A stretch of 64,000 nt of DNA from Schmidtea polychroa. Its lineage: Eukaryota. Shown here in pieces: positions 12,346 to 63,998 of this stretch. Position 1 is the first letter of the stretch. The number at the start of each line of letters is the position of its first letter. The notes beneath the pieces were generated by a model. It was not told the origin of the DNA, did not search any database, and worked only from the letters and a program-made list of their open reading frames with translations. Location of the stretch: contig CM097885.1 in the NCBI GenBank assembly GCA_044892525.1, positions 121,892,001 to 121,956,000 of the forward strand, written 5' to 3'. The translations under genes were made by a program, and so were the position numbers.

Positions 12346-12369
12346 ATGGAGATTGGTATTGGATATATT

Positions 12370-17690: not shown

Positions 17691-18634
17691 ATATGTTCAT
17701 TGCCAGTAAATGAATTGTTGTGCAACCAGTTGAGCGTGAGAGAGTTTTTTAAATGTAATTTCACTCAGTATTTATACTGATTGAATTATACGCCTACGCA
17801 TTCTCTGCTGTTATATCCAATTAGAATGCGAGGCAATTCTGATTAATTTTTGCATGCATGCATGAATGTGTGCAATTATTATTTTTTAATTTAATTAATT
17901 TAATTAATCAAAATTCTAATTTTTATTAACTTTTAAGATTTATTTTTATACATTCTATAATTTAAATAGTTTTTTGCTAATTTTAATTTAGTTTTACAAG
18001 TTTTATAATTTAAAATAAGTTCAGTTAATTTTACTTTAGTTTCATTAATTTAAACAATTTGGTTTTATAAGTTTTATAATTTAAATAATTTTGTTGGTTT
18101 TATTTTTAGTTTTCATTAACCAATTTAGTTTTATAAATTTTATGGTTTATCTAATTTTACTACTTTTATTCTACTTTTTATTATTTTACCAGTTTACTAG
18201 ATAATATATTTTTTATCACGTCAAATGTGTTAATTTCGTACAATTTAAAAAGGACAAATATTATTTCAATATGAGAACAAATAAAAAACGGTAGTGGATA
18301 AAATTTGTGTTTAATAAAAATATTGACTTTTAGACTGAAATTAATATTATGGGAATTAATAATTATTTTAGTTTATTCAGCATAAATCCCAAACTTTTTA
18401 AAATTTTAATATACTTATCAATTTATTATTTTAATATTAGCTAAGGAAATTTTCTGTGTCTTATTTTAATATAATTTTAATTAAGTTTTTAATTACAATC
18501 CTATGTTGTTTTAATATATTGTACTTAAATAATTATTTAAGATGGTTTATACCTTTTAGTAATTTTATTCTTTTTGTACATTAATTTAAAATTTAAATGC
18601 TACTTTTTTAATGTTTTATACAATATTTTAGAAT

Positions 18635-26801: not shown

Positions 26802-27563
26802 TCAGAACGCATCTCCATCGGCGAATACTTCGTCTATATCTACGGGCAATCTGTGATCCACCAGATACTTAATGCCCTCGGCTGGAACCACTTTGAATAT
26901 CTCCTTGGCCGGAATTACGTGGGTGGCTGAAATATCCTTAATTGTGGACTGGGCCATGGATAGAGAAGCTTCTAGCGCCGCCATGGCGTTCCTGCGTTTC
27001 TGGTTTTTCTCCGAGCGTGTTAATCTGTTGCGTTTTCGACGTGGCTTGATAATATCTACTGGACCCTGTGACATAGGTTGAGGTACTAGAATCGGAGCCA
27101 AGATAGGGTCCGATGAGCCTCCTGCCATGGGTCTATAGTCCGAGAGAATTGGAGCGGGAATTGGTGGCAGATGCGGCCCATGCCCCTTACAACCAGTTGT
27201 GGTTGACTGTGCCGATTGGTGGTGGATCGGGAACACATTAGTCCCGTCTTGCACTGGATACTCGCGAACTCGTTTCGCTATTTCTGATTCCGAGTAAACT
27301 TTATGGAGTGCCTCTGATTGGGCTTTTATGGTTAGCCTCTGGCACCGACTTTCTTCTAGGAGACTGTCTCGGCAGTGCTGCAGACGCAATATCTTGCTCT
27401 TTTCCTCTTTCATTTGTGGCGGGGAGAACCACGTGCCTTCATAATGATCGATTCTTTTCTTTAGTGCCCCGATGTAGAGGTGAAGCTGCGCGATGTCAGC
27501 ATTTTTGTCCGCGCAGGAAAAGCAAGGACGAAGAATTTTCTCGGTATTGATTGGGGTAGTCAT
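26802..27563 (-). CDS. Orphan 253-aa protein (CxxC, predicted coiled coil, Pro-rich linker, basic NLS-like tract) inside LTR-like element B
   Basis: Intact ORF with its ATG directly after TTTAG. The core is conserved with copy A through mostly synonymous changes. ATTAAA lies downstream at 26712-26707. Confidence 0.75.
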   Translation of the reverse strand: MTTPINTEKILRPCFSCADKNADIAQLHLYIGALKKRIDHYEGTWFSPPQMKEEKSKILRLQHCRDSLLEESRCQRLTIKAQSEALHKVYSESEIAKRVREYPVQDGTNVFPIHHQSAQSTTTGCKGHGPHLPPIPAPILSDYRPMAGGSSDPILAPILVPQPMSQGPVDIIKPRRKRNRLTRSEKNQKRRNAMAALEASLSMAQSTIKDISATHVIPAKEIFKVVPAEGIKYLVDHRLPVDIDEVFADGDAF

Positions 27564-32900: not shown

Positions 32901-33180
32901 GGGAGAAAAACTCGTATGATTTACAACATAAAAAATTGTATTTCATATTGTCAATAAAATAATTTGGGGTTCATTAGCAAAAATTCGATACTGTAAAGCT
33001 ATTGGTGAAATTTTCATTTCACCCCCCCCCCCCTTTCCTTTCCTTTGAAAAAAACAGTCAATACTTTTATAATGTCTTCAGAACTGAATAAAATTGACCT
33101 ATGCTTACATCCATCCCAACGCAGTCATGCATGGTTAAACCAGCCAATCAGGTAATCCCATATAAAAAAATATGACTTAC

Positions 33181-33902
33181 CATCATAATGGCTATGGGCC
33201 ATAGCTAGTTTCTTATGTTGTCCTTTAGATTTCCGATTACGCATTATTAGAATAATTACCATTATAATAAATATGAGCATTAGAATGGCTGAAATAATAA
33301 TAATTGCAAACAGTGGCATTGGTATATCACCAATACGCCCAGTGCATCTATAATCATTCTCATCAGAGTTATCGTAGCAATTGTCAACGTTGTCACATAC
33401 TAGAGATTCATCAATGCATTTGTAATTACTATTCCAACAACGATATTTAACATCAGGGCAGCTATATGATTGACCAATTACATACGATGACAATGTTATA
33501 AAATAGGCATCATCTGGAGCCGATTCAGTGCCGGGATCATATGTTAACATTATTCGATCTCCAGGTGTCAGAGATTGTACGATGTTACCAACTTTGCTAG
33601 CATAGTTAGTGCAATCGGCTCCAAAAATTAATTTTGGATTTTCTGGTACAACCCATCTTAACTGAATTTCATTGAACATTTGTAATTCATATCTAGTTGT
33701 TTTATAAACTTCGAGTTTAATTGAAGGGCAAACATTGTTAATTTGCATTAAATTTAATTTATTTATTAAAATAGAAAAATAGTATCGATTGTCTATTGGT
33801 CCATAGAAACAAACTTTTTTCCCTTTTTCTTTTGATGATGAAATGCGAACGCCAAGCATGCTTAAAGGATTATCTGGAATACTAAAACAATCGGATGTTG
33901 AT
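33181..33902 (-). CDS. Internal exon of a single-pass membrane protein with an LDL-receptor class A repeat
   Basis: Acceptor TTTTTAG at 33903 and donor GTAAGT at 33180. LDLa motif CPDVKYRCWNSNYKCIDESLVCDNVDNCYDNSDE, then a hydrophobic helix (LFAIIIISAILMLIFIIMVIILIM) and a basic stop-transfer segment. Other exons were not located. Confidence 0.8.
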
Positions 33903-34399
33903 ACTAAAAATTGAAAAAAATTATATGTAATATTATAAAAATGTTACCTATGTCCGTAAGAGCATTTACAGAAAATGTATAATATAAAATTAAACATGAA
34001 ACTATATAGATTTTCATAGTTAATTTTATCGGATTGCTTTAAAAAGTAAATAAGAAGGCAAAATTTAGGAGAAAATATTTTATTAATGGTTAAACAAAAT
34101 GTGTATATAAGAAAAATTTAAAATAATAATAAGAAAAAAATTTAACACCAATTTCTATTTAGGAAATTATTTCAAATAAGAATAAATATAAATTTTAATA
34201 ATTTAAGCATTCAAACAATAAACTCTTCTAAATGAATATATAATTTTTTTTTGCTAAATTACAGTTAACATATAACAGTAAAATCATTAATTTTATTGAT
34301 CACCGTTGGGTTCATTATATTTTATTTAATATTTTCTTTATCTTCATCTTGATAATAGATATTTAATATCTTGTTCAATCAAAAATTTACACTTTCACC

Positions 34400-45500: not shown

Positions 45501-48500
45501 TAAATAGAAAATATTTGGTGCAATTGTATGATGGCAATGATTTTAATGCATATTTTATCTAGAAGTTCTTTATCTCCGAAAACAAAATTAAAAACTGTCT
45601 TTATTTTCTAATTGGCTTATAAAGTGTTATGATTTTTCTACAATTTTAGCTTGATTTAACAAACGATGGAAGAGTTTTAGGAACACCAGATTATTTACCT
45701 CCAGAAATTTTGATAAATTCTAAATACAGACTTCAAGGTCCTCCCGTAGATTGGTGGGCTCTTGGAGTTATCATTTTTGAAATGCTAACTGGTACTACAC
45801 CATTCTCAGGAGAAACAGTTGAACAGATATTTAGCAACATTACAAAAATTAGTTAGTCTATGTTTTCAAAATCTATTAAAATTTAATATTTATTTATAAA
45901 ATATATTTAAATAAACTAATAAATAACAATGGTAGCAACATTTTTTTAAATATATTTTTGCAATATATCCTAACAGTTCAGGTCTCATCACCAGACACTA
46001 AATCAGTGCCGCGTGAAATGGTTTTGGGGGTACGCCTCAAAAATGACGACTTATGAAAATTTTACAATTTAAACCTTTCCCTTAATGTGCTAAAAAGTCC
46101 CGGTCTACTAAGTGCTGCCGTTCATTCATCCTCGATGGCAAACAAGTAAATAAGTAAAAATATATGTTTGGCTGAAACGGGGCGCTAGAAAATACTCGAA
46201 ACTGTCATTTCAGGTCATTTGAGTTGTATTATGAAATATTGCGTTAGTAGTTAACCAAAACGTAGAATGAACTCCCAGACAGATTTCATTGAATGAATAA
46301 AGTTGCATTTGCTCTTTTTAGTGTTTTCGGTTACTGTGAGCAAACATTCTCTATTATGAAAAATAAATTCGTATTGCAATTGTATAACTGAAGGAAGTTG
46401 GGAAATGGGTATATAATGAACCAAATATTGAAGTGTTAGTTTAGAAAAATTTGAAACTCAAGAGAGTCCTTAAAGTTTAATATTGTAATTTTTTATGATG
46501 TTTTTATGTAGTGTTTATATTATAGTCAAATAAAATTTAGCTTAATATAGATTTTTAGTTTTATTTCAGTAACACGCGAAATGGTCAGAACTTTTAATTA
46601 TCAGTGAATTTGTGTTGCAACTTTTTCACTAAACTATTCACTAAAATTAAACAACTTGACAAGGTCGTTCTTAATTAACAAATACAATTTAAAAAGGAAA
46701 ATCACAAACAAAAACAAATTTCGCAAAATAAAGTCGAAAAATAAAAATGGAAATAACCAAATAAAATTGTATATTTCGACTGCTGTTCGAGATAATAGAA
46801 GAATTACAGATGACCCAAAGGAATGTGATGGAAGCAGAAATCCAAAATATAATAATTATCTGTAAGTACTAGATTGCAAAGTATAAAAGTGAAACACCTT
46901 AGATTATAATATAACGAAAAAGGAAAACGGACACGAGAAAACAGAATTAAAATGAAACTATACTGGGAAGACAAATCTAATTACGAAATTAATGGAAAAA
47001 CATTGTCAGATCGGAGAAGCAATTTAAAACAAATTAATAAAGTTATTTATCGCAAGTATAGGGTGATTTCAAGTCGAAGAAACTAGATCGATTTTGTCAA
47101 TTATTCAAATCAGAAGCAGTTTTGAGTGGTCTTGAATTTCAAGTTTTATTGAAGTAGGGTATAGTGAGCTTTCTAGCACACATCCCCCTGTATAGATCAT
47201 ATTATATAATGGGCTAATGCCATATAAGGTCAAATTTAAAGGCAATTTCGATTTAAGGGTCGGGTGGGTTTGTTAAGGGTTCAAATGGGTAGTATAAGCA
47301 TAGAGTTTGCAAATAAACCGCCTTTTTACAAACCGCAGTTTCCGGTTTTCAATTTTCCCAAACCGGCGGTTTAGGTTCGGTTTTCGGTTTTCAGTTTATA
47401 AATTTTTATTGCATAATTTGATCANNNNNNNNNNNNNNNNNNNNNNNNNNNNNNNNNNNNNNNNNNNNNNNNNNNNNNNNNNNNNNNNNNNNNNNNNNNN
47501 NNNNNNNNNNNNNNNNNNNNNNNNNNNNNNNNNNNNNNNNNNNNNNNNNNNNNNNNNNNNNNNNNNNGGTACGGGGCGGTACGCTCGTACCGGTTGTTAA
47601 CATTTTTAAAATTTTCCGTACCGGTTGCTGTATATTAAAAAAAAAGTATGTTTTTAAGTAAAAGTATGTAAAAGTAAAAGTATTGATAAAAACATTCTAA
47701 ATTACTAAAAAAAATAAATATTTACCTGCCATTATCGATCAAATACAAAAAATCTTACAATAAAATAAAAATTTGGGATTTAAAATTTTTTTCGGTTTTA
47801 GTAAAAAAAATCTACTTAAAACTGTCTAATTTGAATTTTAGTACTTTTAATTTCCACTACAATCCAAGAGATGGCATTGAATTATAGAACAAAATTTATG
47901 GAATTGAAAAATTCCTACTGAGCATGTGTAAAGTTGCATTTTAATAGGTGGTTTCACCGCGTAACCACTAAGCTTGAAAGGGTTAACGGAAAATTCTGTA
48001 AAAAAAAATATTTTTCTTTTAATAAAAAGGGAATTTCTCTTTTTGAATACATTTTTATTTTGATATATTTACTCTAAATAAAAAGTTTAGTAGTATAAAT
48101 ATTTTTTATGGTGAATGGTTATCCCTTACTTTTAATCTCTATTAAATTCAGTTTTAACGTGCAAGTATGAAGATTTTAAATTGATTTAAATTTCTAATTA
48201 ATTATTAATTAATTATTAAATATTTTCTTTGTTTCAACCTAAGAATGAAAAGGCAAGGTAATTTGGATGACTTTTTTAGCAAATCTATAAAAATAACCAA
48301 AAACCCTGAACAGCAAGCTGAGAATATTACTAATTCTAATCAAACAAAACAGGTAAAAGAAAAAAATGATACTTCTGAAGTTCAACACCAATCGGAAAAA
48401 GCTGGAACGTCTCGTGATGCTGCGTTATTACATTTTTGGAATGATAAACAACTAAATTATTTTAAAACTAAATACGAGTGGCTTATTGTTGTTAGCGATG

Positions 48501-51500
48501 AAAATGTGGGATGTCAGTGGTGTTCGAAAGTAGAATCGTTAAATTTAGAAACTGCTAAACATTTACACATTTCTGTGGAGTGGAAATCATGCTCTGTCAA
48601 AGCTCATGGCTCGAACAAAGAAAATTTACAATCATCAATGAGAAAAAAATTGAAGGAACACAATGAATCAGCTTCACATAAAAAAGCTGGGGAAATAATA
48701 AAAATTGGTGAAACAAATATAATTTCCAAATCTTTCGATGTGGCTAATGAAAAGTATTTAAACAGCACAGTAAACATTTTTAATACTATCTATTTCATAA
48801 TTAAAAACAATTACCCATTCAGTGATTTTAAAAAATTAATTGATTTACAGAAAAAAAATAATGTAGATTTTGGATTTTCATTACATTCCAGATTTATAGT
48901 TCCACTTGTCGCAAAGCTTATATCTACAGAAATAAGAAGAATTAGTTTTGGAAAACTGATAAATACAGGTTGTAAAATTTCAATTATTATTGATGAAGCC
49001 TCAACTGTTTCACACAAAAGCGTTTTAGTAGTTTATTTGAAATCTGAAATTCAAGATTCCGATGATAGTGTAACAGTTTTTATTGATCTTGTCGAATTAG
49101 ATGGAACAACATCAGAAATAATTTTTAAAACCTTAATATCAGTTCTTGAAAAACATGGTTTTAATGAAAAATATTTACATGAAAATCTTATTGGATTTTG
49201 CTCAGACGGTGCTAGTGTAATGTTAGGAAAAAAGGCTGGAGTTTCTGCAAGAATTTTAGAACATTTTCCAGGTATTAGCATCTGTCACTGTTTAGCTCAT
49301 CGTATTCAGTTAACTCTAGATGATGTTATCAAAGAAGTAAATGAAGTAAATAACTTTAGATATTTTCTCGATAAACTTTATTCGTATTATCATACTTCAA
49401 ATAAACATCAACGAGAATTAAATAATGTTTCTAAAGAACTTGGCACTGAAGTACACAAAATAGGTAGAATATTTGGTCCTCGATGGGCAGCCTGTAGCGC
49501 TAGGACCGCCAAAGCAGTTTGGAAATCATATCAGGCCTTATATATTCACTTTAGTCAAAATAAAGAAATTGGAATAATGTCATATTTCAAAAATGAAAAC
49601 TTTTTAAAAGATTTAGGTTTAATAAACGACATATTAGAAGAAATTTCTGTACTGTCTACAGCTTTACAAGAAAGAGATATTTCATTAATTAGAGCTGATA
49701 GATTGATAAGGCGAACGATTAATCTATTCCAACATTTAAAATTAAATAAAGGAACATATGAAAAAGAAGCAGATGATATTATTAAAACGAAAAAATACAA
49801 TATTCCATTTGAAATTAATAGAAAAAAAACATCAATTGTTGTTTCGAGAGATAAATTTTTTGATTGTTTAGAAAAACATATGAAAACGCGTTTGCTATTA
49901 GACGATAAAAATGAAAACTATAATAATCTCTTAAATTGCTTTAATTTATTAAATCCAGAAACATGGCCAGGTGATATTTTTGAAGCACCATGGATTGAAG
50001 GTGAAAATAGGTTAGAGCAGTTAAATAAAATAATCAAATACATCATTCCAGTAAATGATTTTCGAGATTTTGTTGATGTGCGAGATAGAGAATCTAAAAA
50101 TATTAATACTATTTTGAGAGCAAAAAGAATTTTAAATGTAATTGCTGTTAATTCCGCAGAAGCTGAAAGAGGACTCAGCACAATGAACAATATCATTTAT
50201 GATAAGAGAAATTCGTTGTTAATTGAAACAACAAGTCATTTAATGACAATAAATTTAATGGGAAAATCGATTGAGGATTTTGATGCAACACCATATGTTA
50301 AATTATGGTTGCGAGAAGGGCATCATATGGCAAGTGACAAACGTGTCAAAGCAGCCGCACCTAATTTGCCGTCCCAAAACCAAAATTTAATTTGGAAATT
50401 ATTTAATTAATTTTATATACTATTTTTTATACTATTATATATAATATATGTATTTCTTATGTAAATATGTAAATAAATAACTATTATGAAGTAAATATAA
50501 TCTACAATAGATTTTTTTCCATGCGTACCGGTTGTTAAAAAATTCGAATATCACCACTGTATATATATATATATATATAAATTATATAAAAATTTAAATT
50601 ATAAGACAGTTAGACATAGAATATTAAAATTAAACAAAACAAAAACATTACAAAATTCAAAAGGAATAAAAAATTAAAGTAAAAAAATTCATACGTTTAG
50701 AAATTATTTATTCTAAAATATTTTAAAAAAATTAGAGAATTCAATGAGTTTCCGGCTGAAATTAGCTGAAACTAAAAATACTCTTTCAGATTCGGTGGAT
50801 GTTGGGCGTATCGTTAAAATTGCGTCATACAATTGTTGAAGAATTATAGTTCTCTTGCCGGTTTTCTTATAAATTGAAATTTCATCTCTTAGAGAACTAA
50901 ATTGTTTTTCTACTCCCTCTTTGGCAGCCTTATTTATTGCAGCATTGATTTCATCTTGCCGAGAAGCAATATCGCCATCAATGCTCACATCATCTAAGCT
51001 TTCTCCATAATTTTCATCTGCTGATGTCGCTATATTATCTACTTAGAAAACTTGAACCAAAATTTAAAATTTCTTTTGTTGGTACTTTTTGTTGAAGAAG
51101 GCAGGATAACAAAGGATAACAATATAACAATATTCTCACGTGAACACAATCTTGCTTTGATATTATCTTTAAGTTCATCAATTTTGGAAAAACTTGTTAC
51201 TTCAATGTCATCTAACTTCTTCAATAAGAAATTAATTGCACCTTTGGCAGTTATTAAATTCGCATTCTTTCTACCCAACGCAAGAACAGTCAGTAATAAT
51301 GGTTCCATAATGGCGCACAACTGTTTAAGCACTTCAAAATCGATTCCTCGAATTAAATTACAAGCATTTAATTCTTTTAATACTTCTTCGATGGGTTTAC
51401 TACATTTTAAAAATGTCTCTAACGTAGGATGAATTGAATTCCATCTATGTTTCACATTAAGTTTTAGATGTAGTTCATGACCAAGTTCGATACAAATTTT

Positions 51501-53278
51501 TTGTTGCAAAATGTCATTACGAACTGTTGAGTTTTTGAAAAATTTCACAATAGCACGAACTTTATTTAATATCTCGGCTAGATTGATTTCTTCGGAAACT
51601 TCGGATTCGGTATCATCATTGTCAAACAAAGAATAACCTTCGTCATCTTTATCAAATTCATCATCTTCATTATTATCGCTGTCGTCTTCAGCTTCATTAT
51701 CGAAATTATCGCTATGATTTTTTGATTTTTTGCAATAAAATGTATTAGAAACAGCAAGGTGAAGACCATGATTTAAACATAATTGGACTTCAGCTGGATA
51801 TTCTCTACCGTATTTAACCATAACACTAGCCCCATCGTTGGTGGTAGCTACAATGTCTCTTTCGAAGGACAGATGGAAAATTTTAAGATGGTCAGCCACG
51901 GTCAGGTGAATCTTTGCCGAGTTGCATGATCCAATAATTCTTACCAATCCTAGGTTCAATACTTTACCTGTCTTATCATGTACATTTATGTTCATATAAC
52001 GGCGTTGTCGAGAACTTACCCATTCGTTCAAAGTGATACTAAATTTCTCACCTTTTTTTTGGCCTCATCAAAAAAACTTACATGAAGTTTTTTCTTTTTT
52101 TCATATTCGGCGTGAATAAGTGCCATTGTTCCACTTTCACTTTTAGGTAATTTATAGCCCTTTTCAGAAATTGCATGTCGAATAAAATTTGACCTTGTAA
52201 TGAATCTAATTGAAAAGCCGTCTTTTGTAGCCAACTCGTCAACAATTTCTCCAAGAATTGCTTTTTTCATAAAATCAACTATTGACGTTTTTTGTTGTAA
52301 TTTTGAGTTCCCATTTCCACTTGTTGAAGCAACGTTTGTAAGGGAATCATCGTGCGATCTTTTACAAGAAATCTTATGAATATTTCGCATGTGATTGATC
52401 ATTGCATACGTAGAACCCTTAGAATTGTTCACTTCTGTTCCGCATTTTTTACATTTAGCTTTATTGTTAGCATTGTTTGCAGCTGAAATTTTCGTAAAAT
52501 ATTCCCACACTGCCGACGACATTATTTGGGCATATATTTGAATTTTAAAAAAATACTTAAAAAAAATTATTAATTTTTGTTAAAAAAATTTAGTGGAAAA
52601 AATACTTACTTATAATAAGCATAAGAATTTAAGGCTAAGTTAGATTTAAAAAGGGATATGGTGGATCAGGATGAGCTAAGTTTATTTTGAGTCATTTTAT
52701 GATGGAAATAGTGGGCTTTGTGTGTTAATTTAAGGGTCGCAATAAATACTTAATAGTTACTATAAGAACTTTTATTTCTTCCAATTTCACCACTGATTAT
52801 TTTTTCCATTAAATTTATTAAAAAAAGAGTTACTGTTGCAATATTAAATCAATTTGTGTCATTGTAAATTGTAATAAATTGCACTAATCTATAAAAGTTT
52901 ATTGTCCGTGAATCGTTATTGTTGACAACCATAACATGCTTTGGGAAAAATTCACATTTCACAGACAACTCCAAAAATATTATATCTTATATGTAATCGT
53001 ATCAATTTATTAAATTACAATATATTTATTTAGATATTGACTGGCCTGATTTTGAACTTGATTCATCAGCAGTTGAAGCAATAAATGGGTTATTATTATA
53101 CGACTCATGCAAAAGATGGGGGTTTGCCCAGCTAGACAATAGTGATTACATAGATTATATGCGCAATTCCAATAATCCTCCATTTGTACCTAATGTTACT
53201 GGGAAGGAAGATACAGGATATCATGACTTTAGAAATAGGATATTTGATTACAGTGCAACTCACCATGTCATGGACTAA
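36598..53278 (+). CDS. MASTL: Greatwall/MASTL serine/threonine kinase
   Basis: Exons 36598-36600 (ATG only), 36762-36817, 36859-36959, 37004-37095, 39293-39432, 39477-39568, 40698-40810, 40853-41056, 41101-41292, 45650-45851, 53034-53278, all phase-compatible. Motifs [86 protein letters not shown] and PFVP...EDTGY. The insert between DFG and GTPDY is typical of Greatwall. Confidence 0.9.
37590..38369 (-). mobile_element. Degenerate hAT-like remnant in a MASTL intron
   Basis: GGGGTTCCCAAAC-type terminus near 37585 and broken coding-like frames running into the N-gap. Confidence 0.35.
39620..40440 (-). mobile_element. Degenerate DNA transposase remnant (hATm-like)
   Basis: Broken frame [21 protein letters not shown]...DRILQAR matches the AHPENILL transposase motif; the family label is tentative. 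Confidence 0.55.
42252..42493. mobile_element. piggyBac-type MITE
   Basis: TTAA on both sides; TIRs CCTCTTAAGTG and CACTGAAGAGG (10/11 complementary). Confidence 0.8.
42560..43135 (-). mobile_element. Degenerate Chapaev3-like (CMC) transposase N-terminus
   Basis: [15 protein letters not shown] and [10 protein letters not shown] match the CxNxPDxFCYICG and DHxxDCYFC motifs; multiple stops. Confidence 0.7.
47301..47400. mobile_element. hAT-type terminus with AAACCG subterminal repeats
   Basis: TAGAGTTTGCAAATAAACCG followed by clustered AAACCG/CGGTTT motifs, ending near the N-gap. Confidence 0.55.
47568..50559 (+). mobile_element. Apparently intact autonomous hAT element in the last MASTL intron (left TIR presumably in the N-gap)
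   Basis: Right terminus ATATCACCACTG; GTACCGGTTG subterminal repeats at 47587, 47618 and 50525; full-length transposase ORF. Confidence 0.8.
48245..50410 (+). CDS. hAT transposase (ZNF862/KIAA1586-like), 721 aa
   Basis: IIIDEAS (D), CSDGASVM (D), CLAH (CxxH), PRW and SAEAERGLS (E); N-terminal CxxC...H...H; uninterrupted. Confidence 0.92.
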   Translation: MKRQGNLDDFFSKSIKITKNPEQQAENITNSNQTKQVKEKNDTSEVQHQSEKAGTSRDAALLHFWNDKQLNYFKTKYEWLIVVSDENVGCQWCSKVESLNLETAKHLHISVEWKSCSVKAHGSNKENLQSSMRKKLKEHNESASHKKAGEIIKIGETNIISKSFDVANEKYLNSTVNIFNTIYFIIKNNYPFSDFKKLIDLQKKNNVDFGFSLHSRFIVPLVAKLISTEIRRISFGKLINTGCKISIIIDEASTVSHKSVLVVYLKSEIQDSDDSVTVFIDLVELDGTTSEIIFKTLISVLEKHGFNEKYLHENLIGFCSDGASVMLGKKAGVSARILEHFPGISICHCLAHRIQLTLDDVIKEVNEVNNFRYFLDKLYSYYHTSNKHQRELNNVSKELGTEVHKIGRIFGPRWAACSARTAKAVWKSYQALYIHFSQNKEIGIMSYFKNENFLKDLGLINDILEEISVLSTALQERDISLIRADRLIRRTINLFQHLKLNKGTYEKEADDIIKTKKYNIPFEINRKKTSIVVSRDKFFDCLEKHMKTRLLLDDKNENYNNLLNCFNLLNPETWPGDIFEAPWIEGENRLEQLNKIIKYIIPVNDFRDFVDVRDRESKNINTILRAKRILNVIAVNSAEAERGLSTMNNIIYDKRNSLLIETTSHLMTINLMGKSIEDFDATPYVKLWLREGHHMASDKRVKAAAPNLPSQNQNLIWKLFN
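50713..52522 (-). pseudogene. BED-finger hAT transposase, frameshifted
   Basis: BED finger (VWEYF...CKKC...NHMRNIH), ITLNEW (first catalytic D appears as N), NDGASVM, CLNH, HRWNS and TSTESERVF, split over three frames. Confidence 0.88.
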
Positions 53279-55440: not shown

Positions 55441-57009
55441 AAAAAATTTCGTCCTCGAAATACATGTTGATAGTTTTTTAATTGAAGAAATAGATTAAAA
55501 TCAAATTTTGGCCAATTCGTCTATAAATTTAAATTAAACATTATTTTTCCATTAAAGTAAATTAAATTATAGTAATTAAATTTTAAATGAAAATTAATTA
55601 TAGATATAATTTTAAATATATACTAGTACATAATGCTGAATTAATTAAATTTTTTTATCTAACTTAAGTGTGAAATTAATTAATTTATTTCGAAATATCT
55701 GTGGATACTTCGTCTAAAATATCTTATCTTACGCGAATTTTAATTTACAAATACCTTTTACTAGTCCTTACATAATTTTCATGTGTAAATAAATTCTATA
55801 ATAATTTTGGAATTTATTTTCAATTTTAAAACGTTTAAAAATAGTCAAGTTGTTTAATGAATACAATATCAATTAACGTAAATGTTTCTGTAATTAAATA
55901 AAAACTCTAAATAATCGAATTTTATCACATAATTTTACACCGAAAATTTCAACAAATGCTTTCATTTAATTAATTAAATTTGAAAATAGAAAACTTTTAA
56001 TTTAATAATAGCATTTTAACAAACTAATTTCAATTGACTATCATTTCGACAAAATGGGAAAAAAGTGATATGAAGATATTTGAAATTTTTAAATTAAAAA
56101 AACCGATAAATTATAATAAAAATGAATGATTTTACTGATAAAAACTTTGGTAAATAATGTTGATTTATTTAAATAAATATTTATTGAACTCAAATTATCC
56201 AAAGATCAACATTGATCTGAGTTCCAAACTCAAATTATCAACATCGAACTGGCTATATAAGGCACAACCTAGCCATTATTCATTTCTGAAAATTTATGCT
56301 CGATGGATGTAAGTGCGTAATTTTATTATTATTAATATTAATANNNNNNNNNNNNNNNNNNNNNNNNNNNNNNNNNNNNNNNNNNNNNNNNNNNNNNNNN
56401 NNNNNNNNNNNNNNNNNNNNNNNNNNNNNNNNNNNNNNNNNNNNNNNNNNNNNNNNNNNNNNNNNNNNNNNNNNNNNNNNNNNNNNNNNNNNNNNNNNNN
56501 NNNNNNNNNNNNNNNNNNNNNNNNNNNNNNNNNNNNNNNNNNNNNNNNNNNNNNNNNNNNNNNNNNNNNNNNNNCCCATTTATTTATAGAAACGATATTA
56601 CACTGTAGACTTATGATACTTGTACTACATATATCCCTTACAACTAAGCAACTGAAATTTTATAATATTCGTTATTTTAGGCTCCTAAGTCCGAAGAATT
56701 GGTTTGGTTGCCGGTCGCCCTTCCGCGACGTCGGGGCCTCAAAAGAACCTTTGGAGTTATGGAAGGCTTTGCGAAAACTCTCCTATTTGAAAATGACCCT
56801 CCCCACGGAGTTCGGGACGACTTCGTCGTCCAAAGTTTTATTATTTTGGATGACGATGATTGACTTTGATTCACCTAATTCTTATTTATGGTGTTATTTA
56901 TAATAAATTTGCCTTATTTTAGTTTTAGTTTTCACCATTACTATTTCAAGGACGAAAATTTAAAAAGGGTTATTTCTTTTCATTAACATTTTTATTAATT
57001 CTCACAGTT

Positions 57010-57255
57010 TTAGTCCAAGTTATGCATTTCTCCCTCCTCCATAGTTTCGTCTTCCTGCTCCTGTAGTTTCATTCGCCATAGAACTACCTCGGCTTCATAT
57101 CTGAAAAGAAGAATTTCCATTTTTTCAAATCGTCTTTTGACCACCCAATTCTCTTGTTCCAGATCGAAAATTCTTTTCTCCATTGCCTTCATTTTTTTTT
57201 CATCTCTTTCATGGTGTTAAGACATTCTTTTAGTGATTCCTCTTCCTGCATTTCC
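57010..57255 (-). CDS. Possible small coiled-coil accessory ORF in the Gypsy 3' region (one homopolymer frameshift)
   Basis: After an acceptor (TTTAG) the frame EMQEEESLKECLNTMKEM joins MKAMEKRIFDLEQENW... across an A9 run that is one base short. Confidence 0.35.
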
Positions 57256-57441
57256 TAAAGTTAAAGATAATTAATACTTTAATTACATCTCTCCTTCCAT
57301 CGCACAAGGCCAGACCCTCCTCAGCAACACTCGATCAAACAAAATATTTTCCATTCAGATCACACATTTCTAATTTACTTTTAACCATACTGATTATCAA
57401 TAATTATATATATATATATTATAACATGCATGCAATATAAA

Positions 57442-58560
57442 TCATTGTCGATGAACATAGTTAGGTGTCCTTTTGCATATTACGATTGTTATTATTAGAA
57501 ACACTATGGATAATATGAAAAATGCTGTTATCATAAGATAGAGTAAGTATTCACAGATGATTAATGTTTGGTTCGTTTCATTTAAAACTAGCTTGCTCAT
57601 TTGAGTTCGATTAAATTTATTTCGATTCAGTGGTGGACCCGTGGTTGCTACTATCGTCTGCGTTTGATGTGTGGCTGTTAGGATCAACTCTGGCCTTTTG
57701 ATCAGTTTTGTTTCTACCAAAACTGTTTGCCAACGATATGGTTTGTCCATCCACAGCTGGTATTTGATTTTTATCAGGTAATTATCTCCTAAATTAGACG
57801 TATTAAATAAAAAGTAACTTTTACCCACATCCAACAAAACGATAATTCTTTGATTTTCACTAATAATTACTCTTTCATTGATCATTGATTTTCTATATAT
57901 TGCTATCGCTTCATACTGCACTTTGAAAATCACTATATTCGATACATTTCTTAGGTAAATATTCTGCTTTTCGGTTTTAAACAATGCCCATCTATTGTTC
58001 ATTATTGTCCCGTTATCGTATAGCATATTTTCATAATAATTTGTTAATATGGTATAATTGGCATTCATTTTTAGGTTATAATATCGAGAATACGATTTCC
58101 GTGTATTTAATGTATCAACAAAGTTTTGAAATATCACTTGTGCTTTCACCCGTTCACTTGCTGTCCAATACACATTTACTCCATTTAATACCGGCTCTAT
58201 TTCGACTGTATGTCGTAATTCTTTCGTTTGTATTATGACTCGAATTTGACTAAACTTTACCGACGAATTTGTCTCATTTTGTTTTATAAACCACGGATAC
58301 CTGAAGTTCGCCTTTAATTCTTATGCCACATACATATTTCTATCGTAATTAAGAATACTGACCGGCGTGAATGGATCTAAGAGGTTGTCAATTTCTATCT
58401 GTTCCGATATCTCACAATGATAGATCCAGACAATATTCGTATACGTAGAGTATATATTGATCTTTTCCCATAAGGGTATTTTTGTCACTGCATAAGGTAA
58501 ATCGACCTTCCCACCCTTAACACTTGTCACTGTTAACAGAGCAATCATTATAAACAACAT
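57442..58560 (-). CDS. Second envelope-like type I membrane glycoprotein (about 372 codons, one internal TAA), in frame with integrase
   Basis: Signal-like MLFIMIALLTVTSVKG at 58560. The frame stays open on both sides of the single TAA at 58323-58321. At least seven N-x-S/T sequons and a C-terminal hydrophobic helix, LLYLMITAFFILSIVFLIITIVIC. Confidence 0.7.
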
Positions 58561-61500
58561 TTTTGTAATGTAACTGATTGGGACTGGGTTTTTGGTAAAT
58601 TTTTGTTGAACTATGGCATCCACTTTTTCTTTGTTTTGTTTTGATCGAAGTGGATATCTTGTTTCATCGTCTTCTGGCATTAATTTGCATCGATTTGCAT
58701 GAACTATTATAGGATTAGCTTTTTTACTCCTGAATGGTAGTAGTTTCAAATTTGTTTCAGTTGTGTCACATACTTTATATGGCCCTTTAAACGGTCTCTG
58801 TAATTTTGGTGACATTCCTTTGAGCGGTTCAGGTCTATTGAGATATACCAAGTCTCCAATTTTGATTCCATGTGGATGTGCCTTTTTATCATAGGCTTCT
58901 TTATACTTTTCTTGATTGTGTTTTACCGTTAACCCAGCTTTTGCCCACACGGACTGCACTCTTTCTTGCATTAATGCTTTATAGTCTGGTATTTCCATAT
59001 ATTGTGTTACCGGCAATTGGAAGTTTAAATCTATCGGCATATTATTTCTTCTTAGATACATCAAATAAAAAGGTGTCTCACCCGTGCTTGGGTTTATTGC
59101 ATTTCGGTAAGCAAACAAGCAAGGCTTTATATATTCATCCCAATCCCTTTGCTTACTATTAACATACGACGAAATCATATTTATCAATGTACCGTTAAAT
59201 CTCTCAACTAAGCCATCGGTTTGTGGATGATAAGGAGAAGTATTCAGCTTCCAGATTCCAAATAACTCAGTAATTGATTTAAATAATTCGCTTTGAAAGT
59301 TTGAGCCCTGATCAGTTAGTAATTTCTTAGGAGTGCCATATCTAAAGACAATATTCTCTACGAATATTTTGGCTACCGTATCGGCCTTTTGATTGGGTAT
59401 GGCGTAAGCTTCCGGCCATCTCGTCAAATAATCACAGAATACTACAATACATTTATTTCCTTTTATTGTTTCAGGTAATGGTCCCACAATGTCCATTGCA
59501 GTCATCTCCATTGGTGCAGTTGGTACAGGCATTGGTTTTAAAGGTACTTTAATTTTATTTCCTGTATTTCTCCTTGTAATACATATTTTACATTTCTTGC
59601 ACCAATCTCTCACATCTTGCTCCATTAATGGCCAATAATATTTTAGTTTTAGTCTCGATAAAGTTTTTCTAGCAGATAAGTGCCCTCCTAAAGCTCCGTC
59701 GTGATATTGCATCAATAATGAATCTCTCTGTTTTTCAGGAATCATGATTAGTATCTCATCGTTTTTTACACATTTTAATATTCCTTCGTGAATTATATAT
59801 TTGTGATTTTCATTGATTATTTTCTTTAAATTGCTCTTTTTTTCGACTGTAATTGCTCGTTCAAAAAACTGTTTAAGTTGATTGTCATTTTTCTGTTCAT
59901 TTTGTAACTCTATCATATTGTTAACGGCTTTAATTGCGGCAAATATCGTGCCTTCAATCGTTTCTGTACTACCTTCACTTTCAATGCCTCCATTGGGAAT
60001 TCTAGACATTGTATCGGCATTTGCATTAGCTTTCCCTGCTCTGTATTTAATTTCGAAATCATACTCTTGAAGAGCTATTGACCACCTAATTAATTTACTA
60101 GCTGAATCTCTATGCTTCATCAACCATTGAAGAGGATTGTGATCAGTGTATACGATAAATTTCCGTCCCAACAAGTATTGTCTAAACGTAGCGATTCCGT
60201 AAACTAACGCTAAGGTTTCTTTTTCAATTGTTGAATAATTTTTTTCATGTGGTCTCAGTGACCTGCTTGCATACGCTATCACGTGATCTTTTTCCCCATC
60301 TACCTTCTGACCCAACACTGCGCCTAATGCAACGTTACTGGCATCCGTCATTAATAAGAACAATTTTGTAAAATCTGGGCATTTCAAAATAGGTGTCGTT
60401 ATTAATTTTTGCTTCAGTGCGTCAAATGCTTCTTGTTGAGTTTTGTTCCATATGAACTTGTTATTCTTCTTCAATAATGAATTTAACGGTTGAGCTATAA
60501 GCGAGAAATTCTTTATAAACTTTCTATAATAGCTTGCTAATCCTAAGAATTGCCTCACATCATCCGCATTCTTTGGAATTGGATACACTTCCACTTTTTT
60601 AATGTTGTCAGGATTTGTTTGTAGACCTCGTCTTGATATTATATGACCAACATACACCACTTCGGATTTTCCCCATTCACACTTCGATGGTTTTATTTTC
60701 AATTTTGCTTCTTTTAGTCGTTTAAATACTGCCTCAACATCATCGAGATGTTCATCAAAGCTATTTGAAAATATAATAATATCATCAATGTAAACTAACG
60801 CGTGTTTTAAGCCTCTTAATACAAAATTCATATCTCTTTGAAATGTAGCCGGGGCTCCCGTCAAACCGAACGGTAGAACATTGAACTCATATAACCCTTT
60901 GCCATCTGAAAAGGCTGTCTTCTTTCTATCCTCTTCCTTGACTTTAAATTGATTATACCCTTTATTCAAATCAATCACAGTAAAATATTGAGCTTCTCCC
61001 ATCTGATCGAACATTTCCTGGGGTACAGGAATTGGATATGTATCTTTTCTTGTTACCTGGTTCAGTTTTCTGTAATCCACACAAAATCGTAAATCTCCGT
61101 CTTTTTTCTTTACAATTACAATGGACGACGAAAACGGTGATGAGCTATCTCTGATTATTCCAAAATCTTTCATTGCCTGAATTTGTCGATCACTTTCGGT
61201 TTGATGAATATATGGTATTCTGTACGGTTTTATTTTCACCGGGGTTTCATCCAACAACGGAATTTCATGTTCAATTATATTTGTTAACCCCAAGTCATAT
61301 TCGTGTCTCGCAAAAATATCCCGGTATCTCCTCAACAATTCTGTAAACTTTTGCCTTTGCTCTTCGGTCAGATCAGTACTTACTACTTCAGGTTCTTTAT
61401 AAATTTTTACGTTTTTAGGAATCTTCCTTTCCGCTTCTATCAACATATTAGACAATTTGCCTAGTTTCGTCTTTGGTTTTAGCCGAATTGGCTTGTCACC

Positions 61501-62955
61501 ATAGTTAGCTATTCGCACTGGTAATAATTGATTTTCCACTTTCACAATTTCGTCACACATCGGGGTCTCGTATTTTTCTATTAACGTTTGATTCGGTTCA
61601 AATATAAATTCGTCATTGTCTACGCCAGCAGCGTTCGCATAATATATTATTTCTGTTTGAGGTGGGATGGTTAACGATTGACTGAGAAATACTTCTCCTA
61701 AATCATGAATGACTTCGCCACTTTTTCCCACGATCAAATTTCCAGTTTTAAAATCCAGTGAGATTCCGTCTAACTGCTCCAGTACATCCATTCCAATCAA
61801 ACACAAAACAGGGCTTTTTTCCATAATCTGTACGTTATGTGTAATCTTTCTGTCACCAATTAGAAGTACCACTTCTATTTCTCCAATTATTCTCAATACG
61901 TTTTTAGACAGTGATCTGATTATGCTATTTGATGGTTTTATTTGCCTTCTCTCCTTTGTCGACAATATCTCCTCTGATATAATTGTATGACTTGATCCTG
62001 AATCCACAACAGCCTCCACTCTCTTTTTATTTAGTTGGATTAATATTCGTGGTTGTTTGCCAATTTTTGCTAACGTCATCAATACATAATTTCCGGGTAA
62101 ACCTAACCTGTTTCGTCTTTCGATTTCGGCACTTGTTGGTTCGATTCTCTCACATTGTAAAGCAATATTTTCGACTGGTTTCATTTCCCTCAATTTTTCG
62201 ACTGGATACGCTGGTAGTGGTTGGATAAACGATTTTGGTATACACAATCTAGAAAAAGTATCCTGATTATCATTATTGGACAGTGATTCTTTTAGCAGTT
62301 GATAGTTTTTCAATGTGTTACTTTGCATTCGTTCCTCCGAATACAACGGGGCGGATTCATTGATATTTTCGTCATCATTTTTGTCATCGTTAGAAGTAGT
62401 AGTCAAATCGATATAACTTACCTTTTTCTTTTTCATCAGTCGTGTTTTCAAAGTTTCCATCTCTTTATACTGGTGATGTGTGATAAAAAATCTGGCTAGC
62501 AATGGAACGCATTCCATGACTAATTTCCAAGACAATCCCGTAATAGTATACAATCTGTGTGTTGACAACATCTGCGAGATTATTACTTTAATCACGATTC
62601 CAATTACGCAGATTCCGATTAATCCAGCACAAGCTTGACCAATAAACATGAACTTTCCCCATATCTTTTTCATCGTATTATATGTTGCTCTTTTGTAATG
62701 ATCAGGTGTTAACAAGTAGTCGTAATTTGCTTTCCCAGTTCCACTCGGGAGAATAGTGTCCACCATTTCCATAATCACCCTTTCTTTTTTTGATGGAAAC
62801 AATAAATTTCTCCGGGCCGCTTCAATATCATCACTTGAATACATCCCACTTTGCGTCATACTATCTAGCGATGTAAAATTAATCAAATACTCTAATTTGG
62901 TCAACTCCAATTTCTCTGGAACTTTCACTCCCTGTGATCGGGTAGTGCAATCCAT
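58321..62955 (-). CDS. Ty3/Gypsy polyprotein: glycoprotein C-terminus/TM, protease, RT, RNase H, integrase
   Basis: VDSGS (about 62000), YRKLN, PFGL, YIDD (60792-60781), TDAS and TDHNPL, HHCC finger, MDIVGP / TDQG / VERFN (DDE) and GPY. The order PR-RT-RH-IN is Gypsy-type. Confidence 0.95.
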   Translation of the reverse strand: MDCTTRSQGVKVPEKLELTKLEYLINFTSLDSMTQSGMYSSDDIEAARRNLLFPSKKERVIMEMVDTILPSGTGKANYDYLLTPDHYKRATYNTMKKIWGKFMFIGQACAGLIGICVIGIVIKVIISQMLSTHRLYTITGLSWKLVMECVPLLARFFITHHQYKEMETLKTRLMKKKKVSYIDLTTTSNDDKNDDENINESAPLYSEERMQSNTLKNYQLLKESLSNNDNQDTFSRLCIPKSFIQPLPAYPVEKLREMKPVENIALQCERIEPTSAEIERRNRLGLPGNYVLMTLAKIGKQPRILIQLNKKRVEAVVDSGSSHTIISEEILSTKERRQIKPSNSIIRSLSKNVLRIIGEIEVVLLIGDRKITHNVQIMEKSPVLCLIGMDVLEQLDGISLDFKTGNLIVGKSGEVIHDLGEVFLSQSLTIPPQTEIIYYANAAGVDNDEFIFEPNQTLIEKYETPMCDEIVKVENQLLPVRIANYGDKPIRLKPKTKLGKLSNMLIEAERKIPKNVKIYKEPEVVSTDLTEEQRQKFTELLRRYRDIFARHEYDLGLTNIIEHEIPLLDETPVKIKPYRIPYIHQTESDRQIQAMKDFGIIRDSSSPFSSSIVIVKKKDGDLRFCVDYRKLNQVTRKDTYPIPVPQEMFDQMGEAQYFTVIDLNKGYNQFKVKEEDRKKTAFSDGKGLYEFNVLPFGLTGAPATFQRDMNFVLRGLKHALVYIDDIIIFSNSFDEHLDDVEAVFKRLKEAKLKIKPSKCEWGKSEVVYVGHIISRRGLQTNPDNIKKVEVYPIPKNADDVRQFLGLASYYRKFIKNFSLIAQPLNSLLKKNNKFIWNKTQQEAFDALKQKLITTPILKCPDFTKLFLLMTDASNVALGAVLGQKVDGEKDHVIAYASRSLRPHEKNYSTIEKETLALVYGIATFRQYLLGRKFIVYTDHNPLQWLMKHRDSASKLIRWSIALQEYDFEIKYRAGKANANADTMSRIPNGGIESEGSTETIEGTIFAAIKAVNNMIELQNEQKNDNQLKQFFERAITVEKKSNLKKIINENHKYIIHEGILKCVKNDEILIMIPEKQRDSLLMQYHDGALGGHLSARKTLSRLKLKYYWPLMEQDVRDWCKKCKICITRRNTGNKIKVPLKPMPVPTAPMEMTAMDIVGPLPETIKGNKCIVVFCDYLTRWPEAYAIPNQKADTVAKIFVENIVFRYGTPKKLLTDQGSNFQSELFKSITELFGIWKLNTSPYHPQTDGLVERFNGTLINMISSYVNSKQRDWDEYIKPCLFAYRNAINPSTGETPFYLMYLRRNNMPIDLNFQLPVTQYMEIPDYKALMQERVQSVWAKAGLTVKHNQEKYKEAYDKKAHPHGIKIGDLVYLNRPEPLKGMSPKLQRPFKGPYKVCDTTETNLKLLPFRSKKANPIIVHANRCKLMPEDDETRYPLRSKQNKEKVDAIVQQKFTKNPVPISYITKMLFIMIALLTVTSVKGGKVDLPYAVTKIPLWEKINIYSTYTNIVWIYHCEISEQIEIDNLLDPFTPVSILNYDRNMYVA

Positions 62956-63998
62956 GATTCAGACGTCAAGCGATACAGTGGAGCCAATAATCTATTACAT
63001 TGCAATACTTTAGGCTTCACGTCCTCTTCCAGTAGAATGCGTGTCACCGGTTCCATGAATCGCAATTTCCCGTTAAAATTCACTGGCAATTCATTTGTAC
63101 ATTGATCGAATTTCATCAATTTGATAGGTACAGCTTTGCATTTATAGCTATACAACGCTTCGCCAAAAATTCGAGCAGATACTCCGTTCTCTGATATTAG
63201 CATTGGAGCAACTAAATTCGGATTTGTAATAGCCATCGCCATTCTGTTTCGCAAAATTTCCTTATTTAACTTGCAATCATTTAATATAATTTCTCGATAC
63301 ACACTTTCGACCGTATCTTGGCTAAAATGAAACAGATAATCAATTTTGTTATTGAAATAATTCGTTAGTTTAATTTCCTCTGAATATAACTTCGTTTGAG
63401 CTTCCTCGACAATTCTTTTTGATACATAAATTCCTTTATAATTTGTTTCATATACTGTTTGTCCACATTTGGTATTTATACCCTTTCTGAGAAATCTCAT
63501 CCCATCATTCGGGGATATTGCCATTAATACCGTTGGAGTATCTTTCATTCGCAAAGGCGTAATTCTAATCGTTGTATTCATCACTGAATTTAGAATTGTA
63601 CTTTCTGGTCTCTCTTGAATTTGCTCTCCTGTTATCTCTTTGAAAGGCATCGATTTTAAGTGCGCTAAGTTACACTTTTTCACATTCACGTCGTACACCA
63701 AAATTGATTCACCTGTATTACAACTGGTTTCTCTCATATTGCAAAATGGATGTGTTTGCAATTTTCCCGTGTCATCATCGAACGATCCGTCAAAATATTT
63801 CAATTCTGATTCGTACTCTTCTATAACAACGACTTTATCAATAACCTGTTCACCCACCTTGTGCGATTCACCTTCGCAATCACCATTTGCTTTGATCAAC
63901 CCTTTTATTGCAATTGTTTCGCGAATTTTGTGATTCACTTTCGCTTTTAACTTAATTTCCGCATTTATTTTTAATTCTCCTGTTTGAAACGCTGCCAA
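62925..63998 (-). CDS. Chuvirus-like / gB-type (class III) viral glycoprotein ectodomain, open beyond the window edge
   Basis: The Cys pattern and the segment GEALYSYKCKAVPI...CTNELPV...FMEPVTRIL...CNRLLAPLY...W follow the chuviral glycoprotein pattern. It continues, after a 1-nt shift, into SMTQSGMYS...LLFP...KIWGKFMFIG...TM. Recognised by eye only. Confidence 0.75.
   Translation of the reverse strand: MAAFQTGELKINAEIKLKAKVNHKIRETIAIKGLIKANGDCEGESHKVGEQVIDKVVVIEEYESELKYFDGSFDDDTGKLQTHPFCNMRETSCNTGESILVYDVNVKKCNLAHLKSMPFKEITGEQIQERPESTILNSVMNTTIRITPLRMKDTPTVLMAISPNDGMRFLRKGINTKCGQTVYETNYKGIYVSKRIVEEAQTKLYSEEIKLTNYFNNKIDYLFHFSQDTVESVYREIILNDCKLNKEILRNRMAMAITNPNLVAPMLISENGVSARIFGEALYSYKCKAVPIKLMKFDQCTNELPVNFNGKLRFMEPVTRILLEEDVKPKVLQCNRLLAPLYRLTSESWIALPDHRE

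What the first reader, a model, noticed from the sequence alone, without database searches (positions are those of the whole stretch)
57442..58560. Unrecognised second glycoprotein read directly out of the integrase C-terminus
Seen: integrase runs without a stop into a signal-like hydrophobic stretch. This is followed by an Asn-rich, Cys-poor domain with many sequons (NET, NYT, NGT, NVS, NTS, NRT) and a C-terminal TM with a short tail (KRTPNYVHRQ). The ORF track splits it in two, but 58323 and 58173 are in the same frame and only one TAA intervenes. Inference: it may be a receptor-binding or accessory partner of the upstream fusogen, like the multi-component entry systems of herpesviruses. It resembles no env family I recognise.
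Basis: partly seen in the sequence, partly recalled or inferred. Interest (0 to 1): 0.7.

Follow-up and report, generated by a model that had tools for sequence, protein, structure and literature searches.

The report
Retrotransposon's second glycoprotein: fibronectin-like adhesin
A group of virus-like retrotransposons, probably from planarian flatworms, carries besides its known membrane-fusion protein a second, apparently undescribed surface protein made of fibronectin-like repeats, which may be the missing attachment partner that tells the fusion protein where to act.

Summary
Observation confirmed; the domain is now identified. The minus strand holds a Ty3/gypsy element with a gB/chuvirus-type env before PR-RT-RH-IN, a known arrangement; its env is about 74% identical (hand count) to Smed_errantivirus_2 of the planarian Schmidtea. 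Integrase runs in frame into a signal-like peptide, three tandem fibronectin type III (FN3)-like domains, a Thr/Pro-rich stalk, a transmembrane helix and a short tail. Domain 3 folds at pLDDT 91 as a seven-stranded sandwich matching fibronectin FN3 (Z 8.5). The window copy is decayed: one stop in repeat 1, a frameshift in env. Its sister element P0125 (integrase 68% identical, ectodomain 23%) reads integrase and the same glycoprotein in one open frame. 12 of 14 further relatives have a post-integrase transmembrane segment. 8 of 15 tails end in a class I PDZ-binding motif (1 of 106 controls); the window tail does not. Best reading: an adhesion/attachment protein released by signal peptidase and anchored at junctional membranes, helping gB-mediated spread. 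Rival: a host-modulating receptor decoy. No function was shown. Not found in 10 literature searches; two key papers were unreadable.

The parts
62925..63998 (-). gB/chuvirus-type (class III) fusogen ectodomain, N-terminal part; cut by the window edge; a frameshift separates it from the rest at about 62925-62958
   Evidence: PF24664 E 5.8e-38; about 142 of 193 residues identical by hand count to the Smed_errantivirus_2 row of the eLife supplement
62370..62955 (-). C-terminal part of the fusogen with its transmembrane segment, in frame with pol
   Evidence: PF24664 E 1.1e-22, residues 6-196 of the ORF
58561..62369 (-). Ty3/gypsy pol: protease (DSG at 62004), RT (YIDD at 60792), RNase H, integrase (core 59316-59205, GPY at 58788, YPLR end motif at 58656); no stop
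   Evidence: Pfam RVP, RVT_1, RT_RNaseH, Integrase_H2C2, rve; motif positions
58513..58560 (-). Internal signal-peptide-like segment with small residues at -3/-1
   Evidence: hydropathy 2.94; like segments, located by eye, in 15 relatives; no SignalP run
58225..58473 (-). FN3-like repeat 1, broken by the in-frame TAA at 58323-58321
   Evidence: alignments A1 and A3; P0002, P0003 and P0125 are open across this position
57949..58224 (-). FN3-like repeat 2 (Trp in strand B, L-x5-Y motif)
   Evidence: weak Pfam Fn3-I_PB4 E 0.038
57691..57948 (-). FN3-like repeat 3
   Evidence: AlphaFold pLDDT 91.4, seven strands; fibronectin FN3-6 Z 8.5, rmsd 2.2, 77 aligned
57550..57690 (-). Thr/Pro-rich stalk with three sequons
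   Evidence: 26% S/T/P; sequons
57475..57549 (-). Transmembrane helix
   Evidence: hydropathy 3.05; helix with pLDDT 84-91
57442..57474 (-). 10-residue cytoplasmic tail and stop; lacks the PDZ-binding ending of relatives
57288..57298 (-). Polypurine tract
   Evidence: sequence directly
56604..57287 (-). Candidate 3' LTR (starts TGTA; the end at a TACA near 56604 is a guess); contains a 60-codon acidic coiled-coil-like ORF at 57192-57010
   Evidence: no second copy in the window, so unverified

Best explanation
The region encodes the last protein of a Gag-Env-Pol-type polyprotein of a planarian-type Ty3/gypsy errantivirus. Shown: architecture, FN3-like fold, conservation across the clade, and enrichment of PDZ-motif endings in relatives. 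Inferred: after the cytosolic PR-RT-RH-IN stretch, a second signal sequence re-enters the ER. Signal peptidase frees a glycosylated type I membrane protein (1-3 or more FN3 repeats, stalk, TM, tail), made one-to-one with the gB-like fusogen. Its ectodomain binds a host cell-surface or matrix ligand. Its free C-terminus, which the fusogen lacks because its tail is fused to protease, docks on PDZ scaffolds at junctional or polarised membrane. It thus works as the attachment/positioning component for gB-driven particle or cell-to-cell spread. The window copy itself is decayed.
For: P0125 has integrase and the glycoprotein in one open frame and is sister to the window in the integrase tree, 99/98. 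12 of 14 other clade proteins have a post-integrase TM of hydropathy 1.8 or more; 0 of 3 outgroup proteins inspected do. FN3 evidence: pLDDT 91; structure; profile vs PDB, fibronectin E 8e-4; P0002: 10 of 10 best family hits share the fn3 family or clan, scores 0.91-0.94; L-x5-Y motif 25 vs 5.0 +/- 2.2, 0 of 3000 shuffles. Identity to relatives falls from IN 55-68%, RT 57-61% and gB 35-43% to 23-30% for the FN3 region, as expected of a host-facing protein. Class I PDZ endings in 8 of 15 against 1 of 106 (0.63 expected from tail composition), in tails that do not align between subclades. P0009 and P0011 hold gB and an FN3-TM module in one ORF. Precedent for PDZ/Dlg use by a retroviral Env: HTLV-1 (passages).
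Against: No ligand, virion incorporation or link to gB was shown. The window tail lacks the PDZ ending, and so do the two gB+FN3 proteins P0009 and P0011. P0007 has gB but no post-integrase membrane protein; P0012 and P0016-P0018 have a different ectodomain in the slot. So the FN3 module is not obligatory for gB-bearing elements. The more distant gB-bearing P0043 ends at integrase. Relatives are not independent samples, so the Fisher P of 6e-8 overstates the case. The same slot also carries ankyrins and extra protease-like domains, which looks like a general cargo zone. FN3 is a common fold and shows no function.
Confidence: 0.5

Rival explanations
1. Host-modulating receptor mimic: an FN3 ectodomain with a PDZ-binding tail, captured from a host receptor. 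It sits on the element-expressing cell as a ligand decoy, dominant-negative receptor or superinfection block, with no part in entry.
For: The best matches are signalling and adhesion receptors (Dscam, sevenless, neogenin, gp130, CD45, IFN receptors). Planarian Burro elements carry BCL2, BIR, MATH/TRAF and ankyrin cargo (section 7 of PMC6431247). Ankyrins lie in the same post-integrase zone in P0006 and P0010. The ectodomain is exchangeable, and P0014 has a second signal-FN3-TM module before protease.
Against: No particular host receptor stands out (identity 13% or less in structure matches). The slot keeps the signal-TM topology while the ectodomain changes, which suits a structural surface role as well.
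Confidence: 0.3
2. Direct regulator of the fusogen, in the manner of herpesvirus gH/gL: it binds the gB-like protein and holds or triggers its prefusion state.
For: Co-translated in the same secretory compartment as gB in P0009, P0011, P0012, P0016 and P0018. HSV gB needs partner glycoproteins (section 11 of PMC13524379).
Against: The fold is unrelated to gH/gL (recalled). The ectodomain diverges much faster than gB and is replaced or absent in some gB-bearing members. Chuvirus- and rhabdovirus-type class III fusogens act alone (recalled).
Confidence: 0.12
3. Non-functional captured host fragment or chance read-through, drifting neutrally behind integrase.
For: The window copy has a stop in repeat 1 and only 22-30% identity to homologues.
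Against: Open frames, signal, repeats, TM and some sequon positions are kept at 22-30% identity in P0002, P0003, P0004 and P0125. The slot is clade-wide. Codon-position composition resembles pol.
Confidence: 0.04

Closest known systems
Planarian GAG-ENV-POL errantiviruses, Smed_errantivirus_1 and _2 (Chary and Hayashi, PMC13524379)
   Same: Ty3/gypsy pol, HSV-gB-type env upstream of pol; window env about 74% identical to Smed_errantivirus_2 over 193 residues (hand count; 215 copies listed).
   Different: The paper annotates only Gag, Env, Pol and chromodomains. 'fibronectin' and 'FN3' occur 0 times in the main text and 0 times in 7 supplements. Whether the listed Smed copies carry the FN3 module could not be checked.
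Burro/GYPSM1 giant planarian gypsy elements (PMC6431247, section 7)
   Same: env in frame between gag and pol, one large polyprotein with cargo domains including ankyrins, as in P0006 and P0010.
   Different: The section read lists no FN3 or post-integrase membrane protein (the figure could not be seen). No sequence comparison with Burro was possible.
Nematode NERVs (Sacco et al. 2022)
   Same: env-before-pol order (as cited).
   Different: Paper not held; nothing can be said about its post-integrase ORFs from a call.
Atlas virus and related belpaoviruses (PMC9094657)
   Same: Single Gag-Pol-Env polyprotein with glycoproteins read from the end of pol; two glycoproteins, GN for receptor binding and GC for fusion (passages).
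   Different: BEL/Pao, class II fusogen, both glycoproteins captured as one phlebovirus-like unit. Here the element is Ty3/gypsy, the fusogen is class III, and the two glycoproteins are separated by pol and are of unrelated origin.
Cellular FN3-repeat type I receptors (fibronectin, Dscam, neogenin, sevenless, receptor phosphatases)
   Same: Fold, L-x5-Y motif, repeat-stalk-TM layout, PDZ-type endings in relatives.
   Different: Encoded inside a retroelement polyprotein; below Pfam fn3 cut-offs; many clade repeats add a cysteine pair; no identifiable donor gene.

Membership tests
Ty3/gypsy GAG-ENV-POL errantivirus | pol order PR-RT-RH-IN | tested here: met
Ty3/gypsy GAG-ENV-POL errantivirus | HSV-gB/chuvirus-type env upstream of pol | tested here: met
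   PF24664 in both env pieces; near match to Smed rows
Ty3/gypsy GAG-ENV-POL errantivirus | gag upstream of env | tested here: inconclusive
   outside the window; relatives P0012 (zf-CCHC) and P0018 (Retrotrans_gag) have it
Ty3/gypsy GAG-ENV-POL errantivirus | paired LTRs and PBS | not testable with these tools
   5' end outside the window; only a PPT and a TG start are seen
Fibronectin type III domain | seven-stranded beta-sandwich superposing on FN3 structures | tested here: met
   repeat 3; other Ig-like domains tie within Z 1 (SGBP-B Z 9.1); repeats 1 and 2 were not modelled with confidence
Fibronectin type III domain | L-x5-Y motif between strands E and F | tested here: met
   25 vs 5.0 in shuffles over 14 ectodomains; present in window repeats 1 and 2, Leu absent in repeat 3
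Fibronectin type III domain | Pfam PF00041 gathering score | tested here: not met
   no hit for the window protein; 1 of 16 units at E 0.11; hence called FN3-like
Viral fusogen / env family | match to a known viral fusion-protein family or fold | tested here: inconclusive
   no Pfam family; no match at E 0.001 or better in the viral structure library with a low-confidence model
Type I membrane glycoprotein | cleaved signal peptide, one TM, N-glycosylation | tested here: inconclusive
   hydropathy and sequons fit; no SignalP and no experiment
Herpesvirus-like multi-component entry system | accessory glycoprotein binds receptor and activates gB | not testable with these tools
   needs binding and fusion assays

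The most novel reading that the evidence does not exclude
A lineage of Ty3/gypsy retrotransposons has assembled a two-component entry apparatus from unrelated parts: a class III viral fusogen before pol, and an exchangeable host-derived FN3 attachment protein with a PDZ-anchored tail after integrase. Both are cut from one polyprotein that crosses the ER membrane four times. The second protein sets cell tropism or junctional cell-to-cell spread.
Probability: 0.4. Interest if true: 0.85.

Novelty: new variant of a known kind. Interest (0 to 1): 0.68.

Why it matters
The 2026 survey of these elements notes that HSV entry needs gD, gH and gL besides gB, and says the entry mechanism of gB-carrying errantiviruses is unknown (section 11 of PMC13524379). 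A conserved second surface glycoprotein in the same polyprotein is a concrete, testable candidate, in a group of elements that is abundant in a tractable RNAi model animal. It would also show a retrotransposon recruiting a cellular adhesion module and a PDZ-targeting tail as an exchangeable surface cassette, a step toward complex-virus organisation.

Tried and rejected
Word-indexed homologue search with the 292-aa piece alone: 0 of 266 candidates. Pfam on the ectodomain: nothing. Profile of the 4-sequence alignment against PDB sequences: 1 chance hit. Full-length AlphaFold model: pLDDT 43, unreliable, though its top 11 Foldseek rows were all FN3-containing at E 6e-3 or worse. Viral structure library with that model: 0 matches at E 0.001 or better. 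My first motif test (L-x4-Y) was mis-specified and gave 7 vs 5.0, not significant; the corrected spacing was used. A held-out HMM from 9 units of other subclades found P0125 (E 1.4e-5), P0002 and P0004 but not the window's own repeats. The link of the window to those subclades is therefore transitive, plus profile-profile probability 84.6%. ESM Atlas on the window piece gave only 0.86-0.87, lead level, Ig/FN3 clan. Bacterial/archaeal genome scan: 0 of 31 pattern matches confirmed. Complex prediction of gB ectodomain with the FN3 domain of P0009: no verdict, alignments not used. Programmed read-through of the TAA was considered and rejected as unlikely, because it lies inside repeat 1 and three homologues are open there. 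No second copy of the gene or LTR in the window. Unchecked: DNA of relatives (so no dN/dS), source annotation of the relatives, viral and metagenome contig collections, Repbase, Sacco 2022 and Grohme 2018, and all figures.

Full report
Observation. On the minus strand one frame runs from 62958 through protease, RT, RNase H and integrase into a hydrophobic stretch at 58560. It meets a single TAA at 58323-58321 and continues to a TGA at 57444-57442. One stop in 372 codons compares with a mean of 30.4 in 5000 base shuffles (none with 1 or fewer) and with 49 and 28 stops in the other frames. There are 9 sequons against 4.1 expected (P=0.012), 10% Asn and 2 Cys, a signal-like segment of hydropathy 2.94 and a C-terminal segment of 3.05.

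The element. Upstream lies a Monjiviricetes/gB-type fusion glycoprotein (PF24664, E 5.8e-38 and 1.1e-22), split by a frameshift near 62925-62958. A polypurine tract and TGTA follow the glycoprotein gene at 57298-57287. This env-before-pol order is known from nematodes, bryozoans and flatworms (PMC13524379, section 5 part 1 and section 14) and from planarian Burro elements (PMC6431247, section 7). The window's env matches the Smed_errantivirus_2 row of that paper's supplement at about 142 of 193 residues (hand count; length), so the host is probably a planarian (inference). With two lesions and intact catalytic motifs, this is a lightly decayed copy.

Homologues. phmmer against 1.84 billion representatives gave 3 hits: P0002 (E 2e-13, 24%, nearly full length), P0003 and P0004. 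P0003 begins with the integrase tail and aligns to the window across tail, signal, the stop position and repeat 2. A profile search of longer proteins found 1 of 3286 candidates, P0125: end of RNase H, integrase, then the same glycoprotein in one open frame. Because P0125 is close to P0002, which was in the profile, its E-value is not independent. In a 29-row integrase tree P0125 is sister to the window (99/98) inside a 16-row clade (100/99). Of the 14 other clade proteins, 12 have a post-integrase hydrophobic segment of 1.8 or more, P0009 has a weaker one and P0007 none; the 3 outgroup proteins inspected have none. A signal-like segment, located by eye, precedes the ectodomain in 13 of those 14. 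Six of the 15 relatives include gB-type env in the same ORF; the others start downstream of that position. Identity to the window is 55-68% for integrase, 57-61% for RT, 35-43% for gB and 23-30% for the ectodomain, which BLAST detects only in P0002, P0004 and P0125 of the 17 proteins compared.

What the ectodomain is. It is three tandem FN3-like repeats. The L-x5-Y-x-hydrophobic motif occurs 25 times in 14 ectodomains against 5.0 +/- 2.2 in 3000 shuffles. A 16-unit alignment gives a profile whose 43 PDB hits are led by fibronectin (E 8e-4), Dscam, sevenless, neogenin and tenascin. The units were chosen with the motif in mind, so that test is partly circular. Two tests are free of that choice. 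First, the low-confidence full model's top 11 Foldseek rows are FN3 proteins. Second, the language-model search with P0002 residues 30-320 gives fn3 clusters at 0.91-0.94, with 10 of 10 best family hits in one family or clan; the window's own piece scored only 0.86-0.87. Repeat 3 folds at pLDDT 91.4 into seven strands. It matches FN3 domains and monobodies in Foldseek (probability 1.0, TM about 0.6, none at E 0.001) and human fibronectin FN3-6 at Z 8.5, rmsd 2.2, 77 aligned, tied with a bacterial Ig-like domain at Z 9.1. Pfam fn3 cut-offs are not reached, hence FN3-like. A profile from 9 units of other subclades finds held-out repeats in P0125 (E 1.4e-5), P0002 and P0004 but not the window itself; reversed decoys scored at most 3.2 bits against the 16-unit profile. 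No repeat was detected in P0007, P0012 or P0016-P0018. The last three carry a small Cys-rich ectodomain instead.

A functional clue in the tails. 8 of 15 proteins with a terminal TM end in S/T-x-V/L, the class I PDZ-binding pattern (label recalled), against 1 of 106 outgroup proteins; 12 of 15 against 20 of 106 end in V/L/I. P0007 (no TM) and P0002 (near-duplicate of P0125) were dropped before counting. Tail composition predicts 0.63, and tails align only within subclades, so the ending is kept in about four lineages. The window, P0005, P0009 and P0011 lack it. HTLV-1 Env is reported to bind the PDZ protein Dlg1 (passages of PMC3395148).

Mechanism. Inferred topology: Gag, signal 1, gB ectodomain, TM 1, cytosolic PR-RT-RH-IN, signal 2, FN3 repeats, stalk, TM 2, tail. 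The cassette follows a Y-x-L/I/F-R motif found within 60 residues of the integrase end in 13 of 16 proteins. Signal peptidase would release the glycoprotein, and the element's protease would have to free integrase from the signal stub (inference). Reading glycoproteins from the end of pol has a precedent in Atlas virus, where GN binds receptor and GC fuses (passages of PMC9094657). I favour an attachment or positioning role for gB-driven spread (0.5) over a receptor decoy acting on the host cell (0.3), a direct gB regulator (0.12) or neutral cargo (0.04). Against the favoured reading: the module is missing or replaced in some gB-bearing members, and the same zone carries ankyrins and extra protease-like domains. 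Nothing here shows binding.

Literature. Ten full-text searches (listings and abstract starts only) showed no description of an FN3 or second glycoprotein in such elements. For PMC13524379 I read the abstract, sections 5 (part 1), 6, 8, 9 (part 1), 11, 14 and 22, and searched the main text and 7 supplements: 0 occurrences of 'fibronectin' or 'FN3'. Section 11 states the entry mechanism of gB errantiviruses is unknown. I read section 7 of PMC6431247 and only passages of 10.1101/2021.11.23.469668 (its FN3 mention concerns domain III of GC), PMC9094657, PMC3395148, PMC8532177, 10.64898/2025.12.11.693146, PMC6211748 and PMC12440569. Sacco 2022 and Grohme 2018 were not held; these, Repbase entries and figures could mention the module, so the novelty claim is limited by that.

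Verdict. A real, selected feature: a known kind of element with an apparently undescribed second surface glycoprotein of FN3-like repeats. New variant of a known kind; interest 0.68.

Noticed in passing
P0014 residues 50-231: A second signal-FN3-TM module lies upstream of protease in this relative (held-out profile E 1.4e-8), so the module can be duplicated and moved within the polyprotein.
   Followed up: partly
P0006, P0007, P0008, P0009, P0010, P0011, P0018, after integrase: Extra aspartic-protease-like domains with DTG/DSG motifs follow integrase in 7 of 15 relatives; P0006 and P0010 also carry ankyrin repeats there. Several members also have two protease domains before RT, some with C2H2 zinc fingers.
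   Followed up: partly
P0016, P0017, P0018, post-integrase ectodomain: A different ectodomain of about 100-120 residues with 7 Cys, including a CC pair, fills the same signal-TM slot; no Pfam match for the P0018 stretch.
   Followed up: partly
window 57192-57010 (-): 60-codon acidic, coiled-coil-like ORF inside the candidate 3' LTR; only weak Pfam hits.
   Followed up: partly
window 12247-12840 and 26802-27563 (-): Two related ORFs within 75-85% identical direct repeats about 14.7 kb apart; no Pfam match for the longer one; possibly another repeat family.
   Followed up: no
window 18632-19864 (+): Uninterrupted ORF with a divergent Wee1-type kinase domain (best PDB matches WEE2/WEE1, E 2.5e-16).
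   Followed up: partly
window 48209-50410 (+) and 51039-52579 (-): hAT-type DNA transposon remains (DUF659/hAT dimerisation weak hits; zf-BED E 1.6e-8).
   Followed up: no
window 33125-33943 (-): ORF with an LDL-receptor class A repeat and a TM segment, probably a host gene exon.
   Followed up: no
window about 56344-56575: Assembly gap (run of N) just beyond the candidate 3' LTR.
   Followed up: no
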